Notes: generated from the sequence alone by a model not told the origin. 64,000 nt of DNA from Waddliaceae bacterium (GCA_963783885.1 CAWAPJ010000008.1:96001-160000); one strand, 5' to 3'. Shown: positions 774 to 11,791, counted from the stretch's first letter. Numbers and translations are program-made.

Positions 774-2564
774 TTAGTGAAGAGCCGTTCCTGGTGTCAC
801 CTTGCCTTCAGGCGATAGGATTTTTCCGGAAGCTTGAATGAGGGGGTTGTAGGGCAGTTTCATTTTTCTGTTGATAGAAGTCTTTTTCATATATGCCAGG
901 AGGCCTGAAGATTTCAGGCTGAAGATAAATTGTTTTTTCGTCAGAGTCTTTCTGCGGAGCACGTATTCTTTATAAAGGCGGCTTAAACTGTGACTGATCG
1001 TGCGCTGCTGGCTGAGGTCGGTTTCCTGGTATTTTTGCAAGTAGCTGACAAGCTTTTCTTTAAAATTCTTATTCGGCTGATCGTTGTTGCTGCTGATTAA
1101 CTCGTAAATTTTCACACCGATCTCTTTTAAGGCATGTTTTCTTGCCTTGTTCAGATTCGCCATTTTCTGATTGAGTTCCGAATGGAAAGTGATCGAAGGG
1201 AGGCTTGTATTCAGTGCGATTTGTTTTTGCGGCTCAGCGTTCCGGCTCATGACAAGGAGTTCGGTTTTGCCGGGAAGATGGGTTTTTTTATCATAGGTAA
1301 AGTAGCCGACTAAAAGGCGCTGGACATCGATGTAGCCGCTGAGATTTTTATAGGCTTTCACTGCGGTCTTCATCCCTTCGGTTGTGTAAAAGACCAGGTT
1401 GGGCGTTGAGATCATGCGGTTTAAGTCCTGCAGATAATCGCTTGTGATCCCGCTTTCAAGAGCGTCGATCAGCAAAGGTTCGGTAATTTTGTAGTAGCGG
1501 GGGGCATTATAGACCAGATTTTGCGCTCCGGGGGCGATGATTTTCAACTCTTCCGGAGGAGTGAACTGAGCTTTCGGATCGGATTTGCCCAGCCTGTCGA
1601 TGGGAATGAGCCTCCCTTCATTGACAAGCAGCGCGATCCGTTTCATTGTCGCCGCGTTCAAGTCGTTGGCGTTGAAAATAATCCTGTTCAACGGTTGGAT
1701 ATCCCTTACTTTCCTAAGCTCCATCTGAGTCGAGTCGATGACAATCGAATCTTTAGGGCTGAACCATCTGATGAAACTGGGTTTGGGCTGCGCGAGGAGG
1801 AGAAAGCGCGACGCGTCATGGTTTGTGTAGATTCTGAGGATATAGGGGAAGTCGGCAAAGTTCCCTTGAGAATCTATGTTGCAGCAGGTGCGGGAGGATT
1901 TGGGGATGATCTGCCCCAGGATTTGTTCGAGGAATATAGGGTCCGACCAATTGCGGTTGGGAGGTTTGATGCTTTGGGTTTTGGCATAAAAAAGGGCCAT
2001 CGCTGCGTCGGAAAGTCCTCTTGCAGCTCTGAGCTCCTCTTCATCGGTTTTGGCGTGGCTGCTGAAGTAAAGAGTGAACGCCGCAGCACTGACAAGGAGT
2101 AAAATCGCCGCGGCAGAGACGCTTACCCAGAAAGGACCCTTGGGAGGATTATCGCCGCTTTTGTTTTCTTCGGGAGCCTCTTCGAGAGAATCGACTTCTT
2201 TCATCAGTAGCGAGACATCGCCGGCAGTCGATTGTGCGGCTTTTGTCGAAACGGAGCCTTCCTGGACAAGGTCGTCAATTTTATGAACAACCACTTCCAC
2301 ATCGTGAAACATCAAAATAGTGCCTTCTCTGAGAGTGCGCCTTCCGAAAGGAAAGTCGTTGTATTTAACGAGGGGATCGTTGGCCAGATTATGGATGGTA
2401 TAGCGTCCTCCCTCTTCAATGATCTTGGCATGAGGCGTCTCGAGTTTTTCTAGGGGCAAAGGGATATCGACATCGGATGAGGATTTCGGACCAAAGGTGA
2501 TCTCGCGTTTTGCAGAGCAAAATTTTTTTTCGCTTTCATTATGCTTAATTATCAGCGTGATCAT
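774..2564 (-). CDS. Membrane-anchored protein with N-terminal FHA-like domain
   Basis: N-terminal ITFG...HAKI...YTIHNL...N...L.EG.IL pattern (degenerate FHA), one TM helix (FWVSVSAAAILLLVSAAAFTLYF) and a large C-terminal domain. ATG 2564 preferred over TTG 2585. Confidence 0.6.
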   Translation of the reverse strand: MITLIIKHNESEKKFCSAKREITFGPKSSSDVDIPLPLEKLETPHAKIIEEGGRYTIHNLANDPLVKYNDFPFGRRTLREGTILMFHDVEVVVHKIDDLVQEGSVSTKAAQSTAGDVSLLMKEVDSLEEAPEENKSGDNPPKGPFWVSVSAAAILLLVSAAAFTLYFSSHAKTDEEELRAARGLSDAAMALFYAKTQSIKPPNRNWSDPIFLEQILGQIIPKSSRTCCNIDSQGNFADFPYILRIYTNHDASRFLLLAQPKPSFIRWFSPKDSIVIDSTQMELRKVRDIQPLNRIIFNANDLNAATMKRIALLVNEGRLIPIDRLGKSDPKAQFTPPEELKIIAPGAQNLVYNAPRYYKITEPLLIDALESGITSDYLQDLNRMISTPNLVFYTTEGMKTAVKAYKNLSGYIDVQRLLVGYFTYDKKTHLPGKTELLVMSRNAEPQKQIALNTSLPSITFHSELNQKMANLNKARKHALKEIGVKIYELISSNNDQPNKNFKEKLVSYLQKYQETDLSQQRTISHSLSRLYKEYVLRRKTLTKKQFIFSLKSSGLLAYMKKTSINRKMKLPYNPLIQASGKILSPEGKVTPGTALH

Positions 2565-2675
2565 TGACCCCTCGGATCGATACAAAATTAGTGCTTAGTT
2601 CTACCACATTTTATATTTTAACGAAAAGCGGCATGAGGAGTTTGACAAAAAGCGCAATTAGAGAACAACGCCTAG

Positions 2676-2831
2676 ACCCTGATTGCTACCTAAACCTCAG
2701 CTAGAGCTTACACGAGTATTCCAGATACAACTGTAGCGTCGACGGCAAGGGTAATCCCTTGCCAAGTCGCTACACGCAGTAGATGGTGTGCTCGTGTAAG
2801 CTCTAGCTGAGGTTTAGGTAGCAATCAGGGT
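2676..2831. mobile_element. 156-bp palindromic MITE related to the IS982-family element at 10509-11548
   Basis: Ends ACCCTGATTGCTACCTAAAC...GTTTAGGTAGCAATCAGGGT. Perfect inverted arms 2676-2716/2791-2831. 5-bp direct repeat CCTAG at 2671-2675 and 2832-2836. No transposase. Confidence 0.92.
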
Positions 2832-2976: not shown

Positions 2977-3693
2977 ATGTATTTGACTCCCCCGCATTCA
3001 CCAAAACATACTGAAATTGAAAGACCAAGACGAGGTCAAAAGAGGGCTCCGTCTCATAGACTGAATCTCTACACAGATCCGAAGACGAATAAGAAAATTT
3101 TGAAAACCAAAACTTCTACTCTGGTCCTGAAGTCATTTGCCGATGGGGAATTTCATAAGGTTTGGGAAGTCGAGGGGAAGCCGGGCATTTTGATTAAGAC
3201 GCCGCATTTTAAAAGGCGCAGGCAAGAGATCGAACAGTGTTCAAAAGACACAAAATCAGCCTATGATACCCTTTCAAAACGAACAGATCTTCGGGTTGCC
3301 AAAATTACTACATGGATCGAGGACGAGGGTTATTCCATAGTCGAAAGAGTCGATGGAATTCCACCTTTAGCAAATATACGTCCTCTTCTTGCGAAAATGA
3401 TCACAGATCCAAAGCAATGCTATATAGAGGATTTCATGCCGAGAAACATTCGTGCCGACAGCAATGGGACAGTTGTTGTCATTGACCCTACCAGAAACTA
3501 TAACGAGCTGTCATCACAAGATGATAGGGAAGAAATGGCGCTGAAGATCGCCGATTATTATAGAGCTTGGGCTGATGAAAATGCCAAAATCTATCTAAAA
3601 GAGGATATTAACGTCAATGTGCTGTTAGAACTTTCAAAAGATCTCTTCAATCGTGTTGATCAGAGGCTATCAATCGTGAAAGGGTGTTCTTGA
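2977..3693 (+). CDS. Hypothetical protein with divergent protein-kinase-like fold, putative secreted effector
   Basis: FADGEFHKVW (Gly-loop-like), ILIK (catalytic Lys), DFMPRN (D-x4-N catalytic loop) and VVIDP (DFG-equivalent). Disordered Pro/Arg-rich N-terminus. Confidence 0.5.
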   Translation: MYLTPPHSPKHTEIERPRRGQKRAPSHRLNLYTDPKTNKKILKTKTSTLVLKSFADGEFHKVWEVEGKPGILIKTPHFKRRRQEIEQCSKDTKSAYDTLSKRTDLRVAKITTWIEDEGYSIVERVDGIPPLANIRPLLAKMITDPKQCYIEDFMPRNIRADSNGTVVVIDPTRNYNELSSQDDREEMALKIADYYRAWADENAKIYLKEDINVNVLLELSKDLFNRVDQRLSIVKGCS

Positions 3694-8914: not shown

Positions 8915-9016
8915 CCGCTCTCAAATCTTTGGCAGGTTACAGTTCCCCAAAAGCAAACAGTTTGAGTAGAATTTTTTTTGGTTATTTGTAAAATTAACAT
9001 AAATCAGCAGAGGTTT

Positions 9017-9796
9017 ATGAAATTGAGATTGGTATTTCTGTCTATTCTATGTTTTTTCCAAATCCATGATTTAAAATGTGTCGATATAAAACCTCGGGAG
9101 GAAGTTTACACAATTACATCGAACGATTTAGTCGCTACCATACCGAAAACCGGGACAAATTTATTGCTAAAGTGCCTGAAGCTCATTAAATTAAAACATG
9201 GAGATAGCAGCTTGACATCCTGGCGGCATGAATGGCGAAGTGATGACACAGATATTGTGTCTATAGGTCCGACTCAGTCAAAAATAGACTTCATTCAGAA
9301 AAACCACATGAATTTGGTACTTATCATTCGCGATCCAAGAGACCTAGTCACGGCAATCGCCAGATGTGAAACGAAAAAGATTACCTCAGAACTTATTGAC
9401 GACATTATTAACTTTCCCGGAAAGCATTTATCTAAAGTGGCTTGCGATTTTCCCTACTTTTTAAAGTATTCTTCCTTTTTGGAAGTCTATGAAGAATATC
9501 TCGAATGGGATCAGTATCCTTTTGCCTACATTGTCCGTTTTGAGGATCTGATTGGCGAAAAGGGCGGAGGAAGCAAAGAGAGGCAGATTCAGGAAATCTT
9601 GAATATCGCCAGTCATATCGGAAAACCTTTAAGCTTTGATGAGGCCTGTTCGGTAGCGAGTGAATTATTTGGAGGGACTCCGACTTTCAAACAGGGAAAA
9701 ATTCAGGATTGGAAGAAACATTTTTCAGAAGAAAACCTGAAAACATTTAATCGTTTGAATGGAGATCTGCTTGAGATTATCGGCTATGAAGATTAA
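9017..9796 (+). CDS. Sulfotransferase-domain protein with signal peptide
   Basis: TIPKTGT (5'-PSB loop), RDPRD (3'-PB), VRFEDL and TFKQGKIQDWK. Hydrophobic N-terminus from ATG 9017. Confidence 0.8.
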   Translation: MKLRLVFLSILCFFQIHDLKCVDIKPREEVYTITSNDLVATIPKTGTNLLLKCLKLIKLKHGDSSLTSWRHEWRSDDTDIVSIGPTQSKIDFIQKNHMNLVLIIRDPRDLVTAIARCETKKITSELIDDIINFPGKHLSKVACDFPYFLKYSSFLEVYEEYLEWDQYPFAYIVRFEDLIGEKGGGSKERQIQEILNIASHIGKPLSFDEACSVASELFGGTPTFKQGKIQDWKKHFSEENLKTFNRLNGDLLEIIGYED

Positions 9797-10244
9797 ATTA
9801 TTGCTGGCATTTTTATTTTTGCAGGGATTCATCAATCTTACTGAGGCGGTTGATGCTGCGGAGATTGAAGAGTGTCTTGTGATCACTATCCCAAAGGCAG
9901 GAACGCACCTTCTAGTTAAATATTTCCAGATTCTCCTAAGACCCTGATTGCTACCTAAACTTGTTGTCAGGTTTGAAGATATCGTCGGGGATAAGGGGAA
10001 GGGGAGCCGTTTGATGCAGCTGCAAACCTTCCAAGCTATCAATGAATATCTAAATATCTCTGTCGAGGAAGATGAATTTGTCGAGATAGTCGATTCTCTG
10101 TGGGGAAAAGATGATCCCGAACAGATACATCAGCCCACTTTTTTCAAAGGTTATATAGGAAGATGGGAGGAGGAGTTTGACGATCTCGATAAAGCCATCA
10201 TGGAAGACTTTTATGGCCGGCTCATTTCCGAACTGAGATATTAA
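9786..10244 (+). pseudogene. Second sulfotransferase paralog, disrupted by an IS end and an internal deletion
   Basis: The 5' part MKIKLL...TIPKAGTHLL and the 3' part VVRFEDIVG...TFFKGYIGRW are joined by the IS terminus at 9941, which introduces TGA. The central RDPRD region is missing. Confidence 0.85.
9941..9967 (+). mobile_element. 27-bp remnant of the IS982 left end
   Basis: ACCCTGATTGCTACCTAAACTTGTTGT is identical to 10509-10535 and is preceded by CTAAG. Confidence 0.9.
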
Positions 10245-10528
10245 GCACATTTATAGAGACTCAAGCATCCTAATTGCTGACCATAGCAACCAGATTTTGC
10301 AGAGCTTCAGGGATTGCTTTTCTTAGCTTAAGCCTAATAGTAAAAAAGAGAAGAGGAGCGAGAAGGCCTTTGACCCTTAAATTGTGTTGAATCCGAACCT
10401 GCGAATCACTGATTTTTTCAAGCTGGTGTGTGAAGACCAACTTCGTTCGGGGCATTTTTGTGATGTTGACATGAGATGTTTGGGTTAAATCAGAAATGCA
10501 CCCCTTTGACCCTGATTGCTACCTAAAC

Positions 10529-10645
10529 TTGTTGTTAAAGTCTTTCGTTGGATTCAGATGCGTAGACTCGATTTGAAGGCAAGGGTAATCCCTTGCCGAT
10601 AATCGAGGCTTAGCAGATGAATTCAATGAAAGATTTTAACGACAA
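10529..10645 (+). other. 117-nt hairpin in the IS982 left end / transposase leader (candidate structured RNA)
   Basis: 10529-10556 pairs with 10618-10645 (24 Watson-Crick, 4 G.U, no true mismatch). This is followed by tandem GA/GA, CTCGATT/AATCGAG and the cap GGCAAGGG-TAAT-CCCTTGCC. Confidence 0.7.
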
Positions 10646-10686
10646 TAGTCTCTATGATACTTCCTTAGCCAAAAAAAGGGGGCATC

Positions 10687-11523
10687 ATGGAAACTTACGC
10701 AACAACAGTTTATGTCATCAGCGAAGAAATCCTTCGAATTTTGGGGATTAAAGACGATCCTCAATCTCAAATGTCCAACGCAGAAGTGATAACTTTTGCT
10801 ATTTTATCAGCAAAATATTTTTCTTGTAACTATAAAATGTCCAGATATTTATGTAAAAGATTACGATTATTCAGAGCTATTTTAAGCAATAGCCGGCTAA
10901 ATCGCCGAATTCATAAAATTCCTTGGATTTGTTGGAACGCCATTTTCCGTTTTTTAGCTCTATTTTTTAAGCAAATAAATAAAGATCAGGGTTTTGCTAT
11001 AGACAGCTTTCCAGTTTCATGTTGTCAGAAAAATAGAATCGATAAACGGAAGGTTTTTCTAGAACGAAGGTATTTAGGTTTCGCAGCTTCTAAAAAGCGT
11101 TACTTTTGCGGCATAAAAGTTCATATGATTGTGACGAGCGAAGGCAAGCCGGTTGAAGTTCTTTTCAAGCCAGGAGCAGTAAGCGATGTAAAGGTGCTCT
11201 GGGAAATGAAACTGGACATTCCACCAGATTCTAAACTTTATGCAGATGGTGCGTATAATTGCTTTGATTTAGAAGACATCTTGAAAGAAGAACAAATTAC
11301 ATTGCTTGCAAAACGGGGATGTAAAGCAAAGAATAGAGTCCGAACACCAATTGAAGAGAGGGAAATTAGCAGCAAGCCACAGATTGTCGAGACGACATTT
11401 AGCTGCATAACAAACCTTTTCCAAAGAACTTTTAAGTTCTGCACTGAACAAGGCTTTTTGATAAAAGTATTCTGTGCAATTCTTGCCTATAGTGTTTCGT
11501 TTTTATGCTCGTGTAAGCTCTAG
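10687..11523 (+). CDS. IS982-family DDE transposase
   Basis: MSNAEVIT, SRLNRR, AIDSFPV, YFCGIKVHM, LYADGAY and IVETTFS motifs. Confidence 0.9.
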   Translation: METYATTVYVISEEILRILGIKDDPQSQMSNAEVITFAILSAKYFSCNYKMSRYLCKRLRLFRAILSNSRLNRRIHKIPWICWNAIFRFLALFFKQINKDQGFAIDSFPVSCCQKNRIDKRKVFLERRYLGFAASKKRYFCGIKVHMIVTSEGKPVEVLFKPGAVSDVKVLWEMKLDIPPDSKLYADGAYNCFDLEDILKEEQITLLAKRGCKAKNRVRTPIEEREISSKPQIVETTFSCITNLFQRTFKFCTEQGFLIKVFCAILAYSVSFLCSCKL

Positions 11524-11791
11524 CTAAGGTTTAGGTAGCAATCAGGGTCTTTGGTTTCAGACAGCCAGTCGTTCCTTTTGCAAAATCTCCATTGAGATGA
11601 CTCCACTCAAGGTCTTTATCCCACTTATGCCAGTTTGGGACATCTTTCCAAATATTCCAAACCTCATCGGGTGTGGCATTTGCTGTCATTTCAACATTGA
11701 TTTCCCAATTAAACATAATGAATCTCTTTTGATAAATGATTTTATCCATCTAGGAAGTGTTTGTCTAAAGAAATAACTGTATAAAAAATAT

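What the first reader, a model, noticed from the sequence alone, without database searches (positions are those of the whole stretch)
2676..2831. MITE and IS982 left end share one hairpin scaffold with different, compensated stems: candidate transposon-associated structured RNA family
Seen in sequence: the 156-bp MITE and the IS left end (10509-10645) have nearly identical geometry. Both have a 20-bp TIR and a 28-nt stem arm, then a tandem GA/GA mismatch starting exactly 48 nt from the element end (G2724; G10557). After 20 or 21 nt comes the identical cap GGCAAGGG-TAAT-CCCTTGCC (2744-2763; 10578-10597), and exactly 19 nt later the partner GA (2782; 10616). The stems themselves are different sequences that each still pair: CCA-GA-TAC/GTA-GA-TGG versus TCA-GA-TGC/GCA-GA-TGA; TGTAGCG/CGCTACA versus CTCGATT/AATCGAG; and unrelated 28-nt outer arms. 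Inference: conserved lengths, a conserved internal loop and covarying stems suggest selection on a folded single-stranded structure, not simple decay of an IS. Possible roles include a transposon-encoded regulatory or guide-like RNA with a variable stem, a nuclease-processing substrate, or an ssDNA recognition hairpin. I know of no such described structure for IS982 elements.
Basis: partly seen in the sequence, partly recalled or inferred. Interest (0 to 1): 0.85.

Follow-up and report, generated by a model that had tools for sequence, protein, structure and literature searches.

The report
Conserved folded hairpins inside IS982 ends
A group of jumping genes in environmental chlamydiae carries a long, carefully conserved DNA hairpin just inside each of its two ends, and the small repeat flagged here is a fold-back copy of one such end; what the hairpins do is not known, but evolution has clearly kept their shape.

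Summary
The full-length IS982-family element of this genome is 1144-1148 bp. It carries one ~117-nt imperfect hairpin directly inside each 20-bp terminal inverted repeat (TIR): an L type and an R type.

- The window's IS copy (10509-11548, 1040 bp) has lost its R hairpin by deletion.
- The 156-bp MITE (2676-2831) is TIR + R hairpin + TIR.
- So "MITE versus IS left end" is really a comparison of the R and L modules.

The scaffold recurs in 32 of 151 genomes of the order. It persists where transposases are only 30-40% identical and TIR and cap sequences differ. Constant features are a start at nt ~21, a ~28-bp stem, an AGAT/AGAT tandem G·A loop and a GA-rich loop below the cap.

- Covariation is strong: 86.6% of cells paired versus 54% in shuffles.
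- The fold is strand-specific. 48 of 48 copies fold better on the strand read 5'→3' from the tip inward, with 204 G·U pairs versus 9 A·C mismatches.
- Relatives outside chlamydiae (924-965 bp) lack the hairpins.

A guide-RNA role is rejected. Whether the active form is ssDNA/cruciform (favoured) or read-in RNA remains untested. I found no description in the searched literature or in Rfam.

The parts
2676..2831 (+). 156-bp MITE = TIR + R-type subterminal hairpin + inverted TIR. It lies in a divergent intergenic region between ORFs 774-2585(-) and 2977-3693(+).
   Evidence: The sequence matches the right-end module of full-length IS copies such as G000:C17:25866-27010.
2671..2675 (.). Target-site duplication CCTAG, left copy. 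The right copy is at 2832-2836.
2696..2811 (+). R-type hairpin. The + strand is the better-folding one under RNA parameters. Outer stem 2696-2723 with 2784-2811. Tandem G·A loop at 2724-2725 with 2782-2783. Cap at 2744-2763.
   Evidence: RNA energy -80.2 kcal/mol versus -73.1 for the complement. With DNA parameters the two strands are about equal: -42.0 versus -42.8.
10509..11548 (+). IS982-family insertion sequence, a 1040-bp copy that has lost the interior of its right-end hairpin. TSD CTTTG at 10504-10508 and 11549-11553.
10509..10528 (+). Left terminal inverted repeat (20 bp).
10529..10645 (+). L-type subterminal hairpin. Tandem G·A at 10557-10558 with 10616-10617. Cap at 10578-10597.
   Evidence: -70 kcal/mol versus -48 for the complement.
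10647..10695 (+). Small stem-loop that pairs an anti-Shine-Dalgarno stretch (CTTCCTT) with the ribosome-binding site (AAGGGGG), and CTATGAT with ATCATGG (the start codon). A -10-like TATGAT lies at 10653-10658.
   Evidence: The same arrangement occurs with different sequences in most of the 9 left ends folded. The -10 reading is a consensus resemblance I read from that output, not a tool call.
10687..11523 (+). Transposase gene (278 aa in this copy). The C-terminus is altered by the hairpin deletion.
   Evidence: NCBIfam NF033520 IS982 family scores 149.8 bits against a cut-off of 130. Pfam DDE_Tnp_1_3 scores 55.2 bits.
11509..11528 (-). Remnant of the tip-proximal arm of the R hairpin left after the ~105-bp deletion.
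   Evidence: alignment of 16 IS copies.
11529..11548 (-). Right terminal inverted repeat.
9941..9967 (+). Solo relic: the TIR plus the first 7 nt of an L-type arm. It sits inside a truncated sulfotransferase paralogue.

Best explanation
**Shown**
- A clade of IS982-family (DDE) insertion sequences in environmental chlamydiae carries a ~117-nt imperfect hairpin module immediately inside each 20-bp TIR.
- The two modules (L at the transposase 5' side, R at the 3' side) are old paralogues. They share one scaffold: start at nt ~21 from the tip, a ~28-bp outer stem, a symmetric AGAT/AGAT loop (tandem G·A), a 3-bp helix, a variable inner stem, a GAA/RA loop, and an 8-9-bp cap with a 4-nt loop.
- Stems covary freely. 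The fold is good only on the strand that runs 5'→3' from the transposon tip inward. That is the opposite physical strand at the two ends.
- The window's MITE is TIR + R module + TIR. Its outermost stem pairs are perfect complements of each other, as expected if one arm and the TIR were copied from the other by fold-back (template-switch) synthesis.

**Inferred (about 0.45)**
- The module is a cis-acting part of each transposon end. It acts as folded DNA, either a hairpin on the non-transferred strand or an extruded cruciform.
- It sits at a fixed distance from the tip and is read by the transposase or a host factor. It would promote or gate transposition.
- Copies that lose it are dead ends.
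For: **Both ends, same polarity and same register**
- 17 of 17 ends from 6 genomes fold from nt 21 to nt 136-139.
- The tip-to-AGAT distance is 47-51 nt in 30 of 39 diverse copies, and a 3' AGAT is present in 37 of 39. The 30 is my own reading of the positions listed.

**Covariation**
- 39 of 46 pairs show compensatory change in 17 sequences. 38 of 38 do in 39 sequences.
- 86.6% of cells are paired versus 54.1% in shuffles (0 of 500 reach the observed value) and 37-48% when partners are slid. The covariation score is 0.855 versus 0.25.

**Strand specificity**
- 48 of 48 model hits fold better on the inward strand with RNA parameters, with 204 G·U pairs versus 9 isolated A·C mismatches. With DNA parameters it is 46 of 48.
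- For the 16 distinct ends whose orientation is fixed by an adjacent transposase gene, the counts are 73 G·U versus 4 A·C (my sum of rows).

**Depth and distribution**
- The scaffold persists where transposases are 32-39% identical and the TIR and cap sequences differ.
- The model hits 32 of 151 genomes of the order.
- Non-chlamydial relatives at 33-41% identity are 924-965 bp and have no such hairpins.

**Recurrent loss versus long-term retention**
- Of 16 aligned IS copies in this genome, 4 have deleted the R hairpin completely and 2 partly, at different junctions. One junction position is shared by two divergent copies. All 16 keep L.
- In a 15-copy non-autonomous family (G053), variants shared by at least 2 copies keep pairing at 6 of 6 paired positions. 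Private variants keep it at 7 of 15. One-sided Fisher p is about 0.03, computed by hand.

**Evidence that hairpins form in DNA in vivo**
- Arm-converted, perfectly palindromic copies exist (C16 right end, C2 left end).
- The MITEs have fold-back architecture.

**Against an mRNA-leader role**
- A -10-like hexamer sits about 5-8 nt after the L hairpin and directly before the anti-SD stretch in 6 of the 9 left ends folded, and about 16 nt after it in a seventh; the other two are weak or absent. This is my reading of that output. The native mRNA probably starts downstream of the hairpin.
Against: - There is no experiment and no transcript data. No listed sequencing run is RNA, so RNA versus DNA is undecided. 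G·U/G·T wobbles and tandem G·A pairs are tolerated in both.
- In a MITE one hairpin serves both ends, so only one end has the 'good' strand. Yet MITEs have intact TSDs. A good hairpin at each end is therefore not strictly required.
- Hairpin-less IS982 relatives transpose without any such module. It is an add-on, which fits regulation as well as end recognition.
- One R-deletion junction position occurs in two copies. That could mean an R-less element moved.
- For MITEs the strand was chosen by the model, which favours the asymmetry. The sequences are kin, so the counts overstate independence.
- DNA-level quasipalindrome correction can produce paired changes without selection, and such conversions are seen here.
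Confidence: 0.45

Rival explanations
1. RNA-level insulator or processing site. Transcripts that read into the element from outside fold into a ~55-bp double-stranded hairpin at either end. By construction these transcripts are the inward strand at both ends. The hairpin is cleaved (for example by RNase III) or blocks progress. The effect would be to uncouple transposase expression from host transcription at the left end and to prevent antisense interference at the right end.
For: - The favoured strand at both ends is exactly the one a read-in transcript would carry.
- About 9% of pairs are G·U, and purine-purine mismatches are common, as in structured RNAs.
- Long MITE hairpins are known RNase III substrates in Neisseria Correia elements (recalled, not looked up).
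- The element already has one RNA-level device against read-in transcripts, the anti-SD stem-loop.
Against: - No U-tract follows the hairpins, and no terminator-like site was found at the ends.
- The anti-SD stem-loop already silences read-in transcripts at the left end.
- A conserved distance from the tip is not needed for an RNA role.
- The loops are A/T-rich tetraloops, not the stable GNRA/UNCG types (read).
- 55 bp is far more than an RNA device needs and costs the element frequent deletions.
- No RNA data are available.
Confidence: 0.27
2. Single-strand priming signal. If the element moves by copy-out/paste-in, whichever strand is circularised carries exactly one 'good' hairpin next to the junction. 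That hairpin could act like a plasmid single-strand origin or the F-plasmid Frpo ssDNA promoter and start complementary-strand synthesis.
For: - It explains why the good strand is opposite at the two ends, and why one hairpin suffices for a MITE.
- Single-strand origins are long imperfect hairpins that are strand-specific, conserved in structure and variable in sequence (recalled).
Against: - The transposition pathway of IS982 is unknown. The review PMC7335449 has no occurrence of 'circle' or 'circular', and a passage found lists cut/paste, copy/paste and co-integrate as open alternatives.
- No circle junction was seen in DNA contigs of 4 runs, though contigs could hardly show one.
- No junction promoter is evident by eye.
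Confidence: 0.1
3. No selected fold. The conserved blocks (TIR, AGAT, GCGTAG, cap) are double-stranded protein-binding sites. The palindromy is a historical accident kept up by template-switch 'quasipalindrome correction'.
For: - Arm conversion to perfect palindromes does occur here (C16 right end, C2 left end).
- On one strand the two AGAT motifs are direct repeats, as binding sites could be.
Against: - Correction would erase mismatches. Yet the G·A loops and one-strand wobbles persist across transposase divergence down to about 30% identity.
- The 204:9 G·U to A·C asymmetry flips strand between the two ends of one element. No replication or transcription bias would do that.
- Private mutations in decaying copies are only about 6:3.
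- The AGAT motif does not co-vary with the TIR sequence (read).
Confidence: 0.08
4. Guide or bridge-like RNA. The variable stems specify target or donor DNA by base pairing, as in IS110 bridge RNAs or the TnpB ωRNA.
For: It is a structured module encoded at a transposon end with variable sequence.
Against: - The variable segments are fully base-paired within the hairpin, and the internal loops are 2-5 nt.
- 23 insertions of near-identical elements share only C-N-N-N-G with no further conserved flank.
- The transposase is an ordinary ~280-aa DDE protein with TIRs and a 5-bp TSD.
Confidence: 0.02

Closest known systems
Subterminal imperfect hairpins of IS200/IS605 elements (recognised as ssDNA by the Y1 HUH transposase TnpA)
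   Same: Imperfect palindromes just inside the element ends. They are strand-specific, and non-Watson-Crick features are conserved. This matches the abstracts listed (PMC6006769, PMC5027513).
   Different: - Here the enzyme is a DDE transposase of the IS982 family, with 20-bp TIRs and a 5-bp TSD.
- The hairpins are about 117 nt rather than a few tens.
- The good strand is opposite at the two ends (two-fold symmetry) rather than the same top strand.
Integron attC sites (recalled, not looked up)
   Same: Structure rather than sequence is conserved. One strand folds into the active form, and imperfect pairs mark that strand.
   Different: attC is a recombination site for a tyrosine recombinase in gene cassettes, not part of a transposon end. 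It lacks the tandem G·A scaffold.
Hairpin-forming bacterial MITEs (Correia/NEMIS, ERIC, RUP; recalled) and the IS982-derived MITE of Cardinium (PMC9769881, passages read)
   Same: A short non-autonomous element with the parent's TIRs and a TSD. The whole element can fold into one long hairpin.
   Different: - In those elements the hairpin comes from TIR pairing or internal decay.
- Here the parent IS itself carries two self-contained, conserved hairpin modules, and the MITE is a fold-back copy of one of them.
- The Cardinium paper has no occurrence of 'hairpin', 'stem' or 'secondary structure'.
Read-through protection structures of IS10, IS50 and IS200 (recalled)
   Same: The small anti-SD stem-loop at 10647-10695 fits this kind. 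It can form only in transcripts that start upstream of the element's own -10-like hexamer.
   Different: The large hairpins do not touch the ribosome-binding site, occur at the right end too, and are ten times longer.
Registered IS982-family elements (ISfinder list as tabulated in PMC7335449, read)
   Same: Single DDE transposase, AC-starting TIRs, TSD within 2-10 bp, length within 845-1282 bp.
   Different: - The family's mean length is 996 bp.
- The three Parachlamydia entries are 952-1023 bp, and their transposase genes start at nt 105-128, so they have no room for a full left-end module and are the short type (I did not examine their sequences).
- The review text has no passage on subterminal hairpins.

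Membership tests
IS982 family insertion sequence | Transposase matches the curated IS982 model above its cut-off | tested here: met
   NF033520 scores 149.8 bits against a cut-off of 130. Pfam DDE_Tnp_1_3 and DDE_Tnp_1 also hit.
IS982 family insertion sequence | TIRs with the conserved positions 5'-AC(N)6T(N)5TT (PMC7335449) | tested here: inconclusive
   AC at positions 1-2 and T at 9 are met. Positions 15-16 read CT, not TT (read).
IS982 family insertion sequence | Length 845-1282 bp and direct repeats of 2-10 bp | tested here: met
   Full-length copies are 1144-1148 bp. 23 of 30 elements over 100 bp have a perfect 5-bp TSD.
MITE | Short, non-coding, carries the TIRs of a parental IS, flanked by a TSD, multi-copy | tested here: met
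   156 bp with the same 20-bp TIRs and TSD CCTAG. 11 elements of 156-159 bp occur in the genome.
Any Rfam RNA family | Match at or above a family's gathering score | tested here: not met
   The only hit in the window is a tRNA. The E-value scan of 4 loci gave only sub-threshold plant miRNA-precursor and similar hits, for example 35.5 bits against a gathering score of 79.
Kink-turn | Three-nucleotide bulge followed by tandem G·A pairs (recalled definition) | tested here: not met
   The AGAT/AGAT loop is symmetric 2x2 with no bulge. The cap-proximal GAA/RA loop has a 1-nt excess only.
IS200/IS605-type single-strand transposon | HUH Y1 transposase, no TIRs, no TSD | tested here: not met
   DDE transposase, 20-bp TIRs and a 5-bp TSD.
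Guide/bridge RNA of a transposon | Unpaired variable segments complementary to target or donor DNA | tested here: not met
   The variable segments are paired within the hairpin. Targets share only CNNNG.
Intrinsic terminator | GC-rich stem followed by a U/T run | tested here: not met
   No terminator-like site was found at either end of the full-length copy.

The most novel reading that the evidence does not exclude
A lineage of DDE (IS982-family) transposons has become dependent on a folded single-stranded DNA module at each end. The hairpin forms on the non-transferred strand, carries tandem G·A pairs and sits a fixed 48 nt from the tip. It would be read by the transposase or used as a priming signal on a single-strand intermediate. 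That would be structure-specific end recognition of the kind so far tied to HUH transposases and integron integrases, now found in a classical cut-or-copy DDE element.
Probability: 0.35. Interest if true: 0.85.

Novelty: new variant of a known kind. Interest (0 to 1): 0.66.

Why it matters
- DDE insertion sequences are thought to be defined by short double-stranded TIRs. A deeply conserved, covarying, strand-specific 117-nt fold at both ends would add a structural layer to end recognition or control in such an element.
- It explains how a family of palindromic MITEs is born, by fold-back copying of one end.
- It gives a clean, testable system: hairpin deletion, strand flip, compensatory swaps and GA-to-Watson-Crick changes in a mini-transposon.
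- It supplies a covariance model that finds these elements and their relics across environmental chlamydiae, where they are now largely unannotated.

Tried and rejected
- **RNA evidence.** The look-up of sequencing runs listed 20 holders in 17 studies and none on record as RNA. No RNA holder is listed, so expression is untested.
- **Read laying.** Read laying on DNA contigs of 4 runs showed no joints, circle junctions or deletions. Contigs could hardly show them.
- **Rfam.** Nothing was found at gathering thresholds. The E-value scan gave only sub-threshold generic long-hairpin hits.
- **Promoters.** The sigma-70 scan of a full-length copy found no + strand promoter at the left end. It found 3 sites on the - strand inside the transposase gene, which is within the chance expectation of 2.5 ± 1.6.
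- **Related loci.** The search for related loci with an 8-protein alignment failed for lack of a conserved stretch. It was repeated with 4 proteins.
- **Second transposase-binding site.** I considered that the AGAT motif is a second copy of a TIR binding site, because TIRs of some relatives read CCAGAT. This is rejected. The TIR position varies (CAGAT, CTGAT, CAAGT, CGGTT) while AGAT stays constant (read).
- **Cruciform-dependent promoter.** I considered that extrusion joins the TIR's TTGCTA (-35-like) to the -10-like hexamer after the L hairpin. The resulting spacer is only 12-14 nt by my count, so this remains speculation.
- **Independent palindromic repeat.** I considered that the hairpin is an independent repeat that invaded the IS. 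Every cap copy I checked among the 54 in the genome lies in an IS or MITE or at a contig edge, so none appeared solo. This was by inspection, not exhaustive.
- **Chimeric MITEs.** Two chimeric L/R MITEs (C1:93451, C5:72964) cannot fold. They look like in-situ deletions between the two caps of resident IS copies, because their cap loops have opposite orientation. They do not show that hairpin-less elements move.
- **Earlier notes of this scan.** They held nothing on this structure.

Full report
**1. The observation**

The sequence is as described.
- The 20-nt TIR occurs five times in the window: at both ends of the MITE, at both ends of the IS, and once solo at 9941. Shuffles give none.
- The 20-nt cap occurs twice, against none expected.
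- Reading base by base, the GA dinucleotides begin at 2724 and 10557, each 48 nt after the element's first base. Their partners begin at 2782 and 10616, each 19 nt after the cap.
- The MITE folds into one continuous 156-nt hairpin (-122.2 kcal/mol, z -20.3).
- The IS left end folds from nt 21 to nt 137 with the same succession of stems and loops.

**2.

I laid out the whole genome and searched it for the two motifs.
- There are 85 TIR hits and 54 cap hits at up to 3 mismatches. They pair into 32 elements.
- The commonest full-length form is 1144-1148 bp, not 1040 bp. It has a cap-bearing hairpin at both ends.
- The left module (L) is the one in the window's IS. The right module (R), read from the right tip inward, is the MITE's sequence.
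- The window's IS ends ...ATGC|TCGTGTAAGCTCTAGCTAAG+TIR. Its R module has lost about 105 bp.

So the MITE and the IS left end are the R and L modules of one element.

The genome's MITEs come in three sorts:
- R-only: window, C19, C31, C35, C43.
- L-only: C3, C10, C12, C36.
- Two L/R chimeras joined at the cap.

In the pure MITEs, the stem next to the second TIR is a perfect complement of the first arm, whereas the IS has wobbles or other sequence there. This is what fold-back (template-switch) copying of one arm plus the TIR would give. A simple deletion would not give it.

**3. The element**
- The transposase passes the curated IS982 model at 149.8 bits against a cut-off of 130.
- 23 of 30 elements longer than 100 bp have a perfect 5-bp duplication. 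It always reads C-N-N-N-G, most often CTWAG, with nothing conserved further out.
- About 2 nt after the L hairpin a small stem-loop pairs an anti-Shine-Dalgarno stretch with the ribosome-binding site and start codon.
- An SD-sequestering stem-loop of this kind, built from different sequences, appears in most of the nine left ends folded from seven genomes (G149 has no clear one, and the call printed folds only).
- In 6 of these a -10-like hexamer lies about 5-8 nt after the hairpin, directly before the anti-SD stretch. In a seventh it lies about 16 nt after the hairpin. The other two are weak or absent. This is my reading, a consensus resemblance only.
- If that is the promoter, the native mRNA starts downstream of the large hairpin and within or after the anti-SD stretch. 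Only read-in transcripts would then be silenced. That is the classical fold-back design recalled from IS10 and IS50.

**4. Is the scaffold conserved elsewhere?**
- Transposase relatives occur in 25 of 201 sampled genomes of the order at E ≤ 1e-20.
- In elements 54-73% identical in protein (G072, G147, G086, G044, G149), both ends carry the same scaffold with unrelated stem sequences. 17 of 17 ends fold from nt 21 to nt 136-139.
- RNAalifold on these 17 gives 46 pairs, 39 of them with changes on both sides.
- A covariance model built from them finds full-length matches in 32 of 151 genomes of the order at E ≤ 1e-3. In a second sample it finds 25 of 151 at E ≤ 1e-5, with 0 of 27 in the family of 1.0-1.2-Mb genomes.
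- Many hits are MITEs or deletion derivatives in genomes where only transposase fragments or none were found.
- Folding 48 non-overlapping hits shows the scaffold even where the TIR, the cap and every stem differ and the neighbouring transposase is only 32-39% identical.
- On a MAFFT alignment of 39 diverse copies, all 38 consensus pairs show compensatory change.
- In that alignment 86.6% of cells pair, versus 54.1% in shuffles (0 of 500 reach the observed value) and 37-48% with slid partners.
- The 5' AGAT lies at nt 47-51 in 30 of 39 copies, and a 3' AGAT is present in 37 of 39 (the 30 is my filtering of the listed positions).
- A second purine-rich loop (5' GAA/GAC opposite 3' GA/AA) flanks the cap in most copies (read).

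**5. Limits of the family**
- Transposase relatives outside chlamydiae (Poribacteria, Chloroflexota, Desulfobacteraceae and others; 33-41% identity) have related TIRs (ACCCAAGTTGC...).
- In 13 of 19 loci examined the element measures 924-965 bp. In three loci no TIR was found, two gave spurious TIRs, and one is chlamydial.
- The model finds nothing above 18 bits there.
- Their left ends hold only the small SD- or AUG-sequestering stem-loop.
- The registered Parachlamydia IS982 members tabulated in PMC7335449 are 952-1023 bp.

The two hairpins are therefore an innovation of one chlamydial clade. They add about 2 × 90 bp to the element.

**6. Strand specificity**
- All 48 hits fold better on the strand read from the tip inward than on its complement with RNA parameters. 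The helices hold 204 G·U pairs against 9 isolated A·C mismatches. With DNA parameters 46 of 48 fold better.
- For MITEs the model chose the strand, which biases the count. For the 16 distinct ends whose orientation is fixed by the transposase gene, the counts are still 73 versus 4 (my sum).
- The good strand is the top strand at the left end and the bottom strand at the right end. No replication or transcription bias across one element would flip like that.
- Between two IS variants in this genome, all five stem differences in the L module interconvert Watson-Crick and G·T pairs on the inward strand (read).

**7. Turnover**
- The palindromes are costly. Of 16 aligned IS copies, 4 have lost R completely and 2 partly, at different junctions. 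One junction position recurs in two divergent copies. L is intact in all 16.
- Two copies show one arm converted to the perfect complement of the other, erasing the G·A loop (C16 right end, C2 left end).
- So DNA-level hairpin events do happen. They tend to destroy the imperfect features, which nevertheless persist across the clade.
- In a 15-copy non-autonomous family (G053), variants shared by two or more copies keep pairing at 6 of 6 paired positions. Private variants keep it at 7 of 15, with a wobble to A·C ratio of about 6:3.
- The numbers are small, but the direction is what selection through propagation predicts.

**8. Mechanism**

What is shown is a selected, strand-specific fold in fixed register with each tip. 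What it does is inference.

I favour a DNA-level role at the ends, at about 0.45. My reasons:
- The module is two-fold symmetric, like the TIRs.
- Its distance from the tip is held to ±2 nt over deep divergence.
- The native mRNA probably excludes it.
- Its length and A/T-rich loops suit DNA hairpins better than RNA devices.
- Fold-back MITEs and arm conversions show that the DNA does fold in vivo.

The main rival, at about 0.27, is action in read-in transcripts, which carry exactly the favoured strand at both ends. A priming-signal role on a single-strand intermediate, at about 0.1, would explain why one hairpin suffices for a MITE. A guide-RNA role is contradicted by the target data.

**9. 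Known or new**
- Rfam holds nothing like it.
- The IS982 review has no relevant passage for 'hairpin', 'stem-loop', 'palindrom', 'MITE' or 'subterminal'.
- The Cardinium IS982-MITE paper has no occurrence of hairpin, stem or secondary structure.
- Five searches found no description. The term sets were IS982 + hairpin, IS982 + MITE, miniature inverted + Chlamydiae, five terms on subterminal hairpins, and IS982 + chlamydia.
- Supplements were not consulted. The ISfinder database itself could not be searched.

I class it as a new variant of a known kind, namely structured transposon ends and hairpin MITEs, in a family and enzyme class where it was not expected.

Noticed in passing
window 10647-10695 (and the equivalent position in L003, L028, L007, L012, L008, L019): A small stem-loop pairs an anti-Shine-Dalgarno stretch with the transposase ribosome-binding site and start codon. 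A -10-like hexamer sits directly before the anti-SD in most relatives. This looks like the classical design that silences only read-in transcripts.
   Followed up: partly
window 9759-10244, relic at 9941-9967: A paralogue of the neighbouring sulfotransferase-domain gene (8978-9796; Pfam PF00685, 30.5 bits) lacks its middle part. In its place is a 27-nt relic of the IS left end, 568 bp upstream of the intact IS and in the same orientation. This is probably an IS-mediated adjacent deletion.
   Followed up: partly
G000:C16:21325-22468 (L034) and G000:C2:83630-84669 (L035): Two IS copies in which one hairpin arm has been rewritten as the perfect complement of the other, erasing the G·A loop and the wobbles. 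These are natural examples of quasipalindrome correction.
   Followed up: partly
G000:C1:93451-93606 (L044) and G000:C5:72964-73119 (L045): Chimeric 156-bp elements made of the outer arm of R and the outer arm of L joined at the cap, with opposite loop orientation in the two copies. They look like independent deletions between the two caps of resident IS copies.
   Followed up: partly
L059:1501-2204 (G053) and 15 related ends L161-L176: A ~704-bp non-autonomous derivative with a hairpin module at each end and a remnant of the transposase N-terminus. It is multi-copy in a genome where only a 22.9-bit transposase fragment was found. Its two subfamilies differ by a compensatory G-C to A-T change next to the G·A loop.
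   Followed up: partly
G000:C6:40378-41470 and G000:C28:22409-23036: Two contigs carry differently deleted versions (1093 bp and 628 bp) of an IS with identical flanks on both sides. This is either a duplicated region or heterogeneity in the assembled population.
   Followed up: no
R-type modules of G086, G149, G044, G007, G104, G027, G102, G088, G033 (alignment A5, columns ~40-45 and ~133-137): A further conserved internal loop in the outer stem of many right-end modules: 5' GCGAA(G) opposite 3' GCAGC. It is absent from this genome's R module.
   Followed up: no
L031:393-449, minus strand (inside the transposase 5' coding region): Three overlapping sigma-70-like sites point toward the left end. 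The best is TTTACA-17-TATAGT at 10 of 12 matches. This could be an antisense promoter, but the count is within the chance expectation.
   Followed up: no
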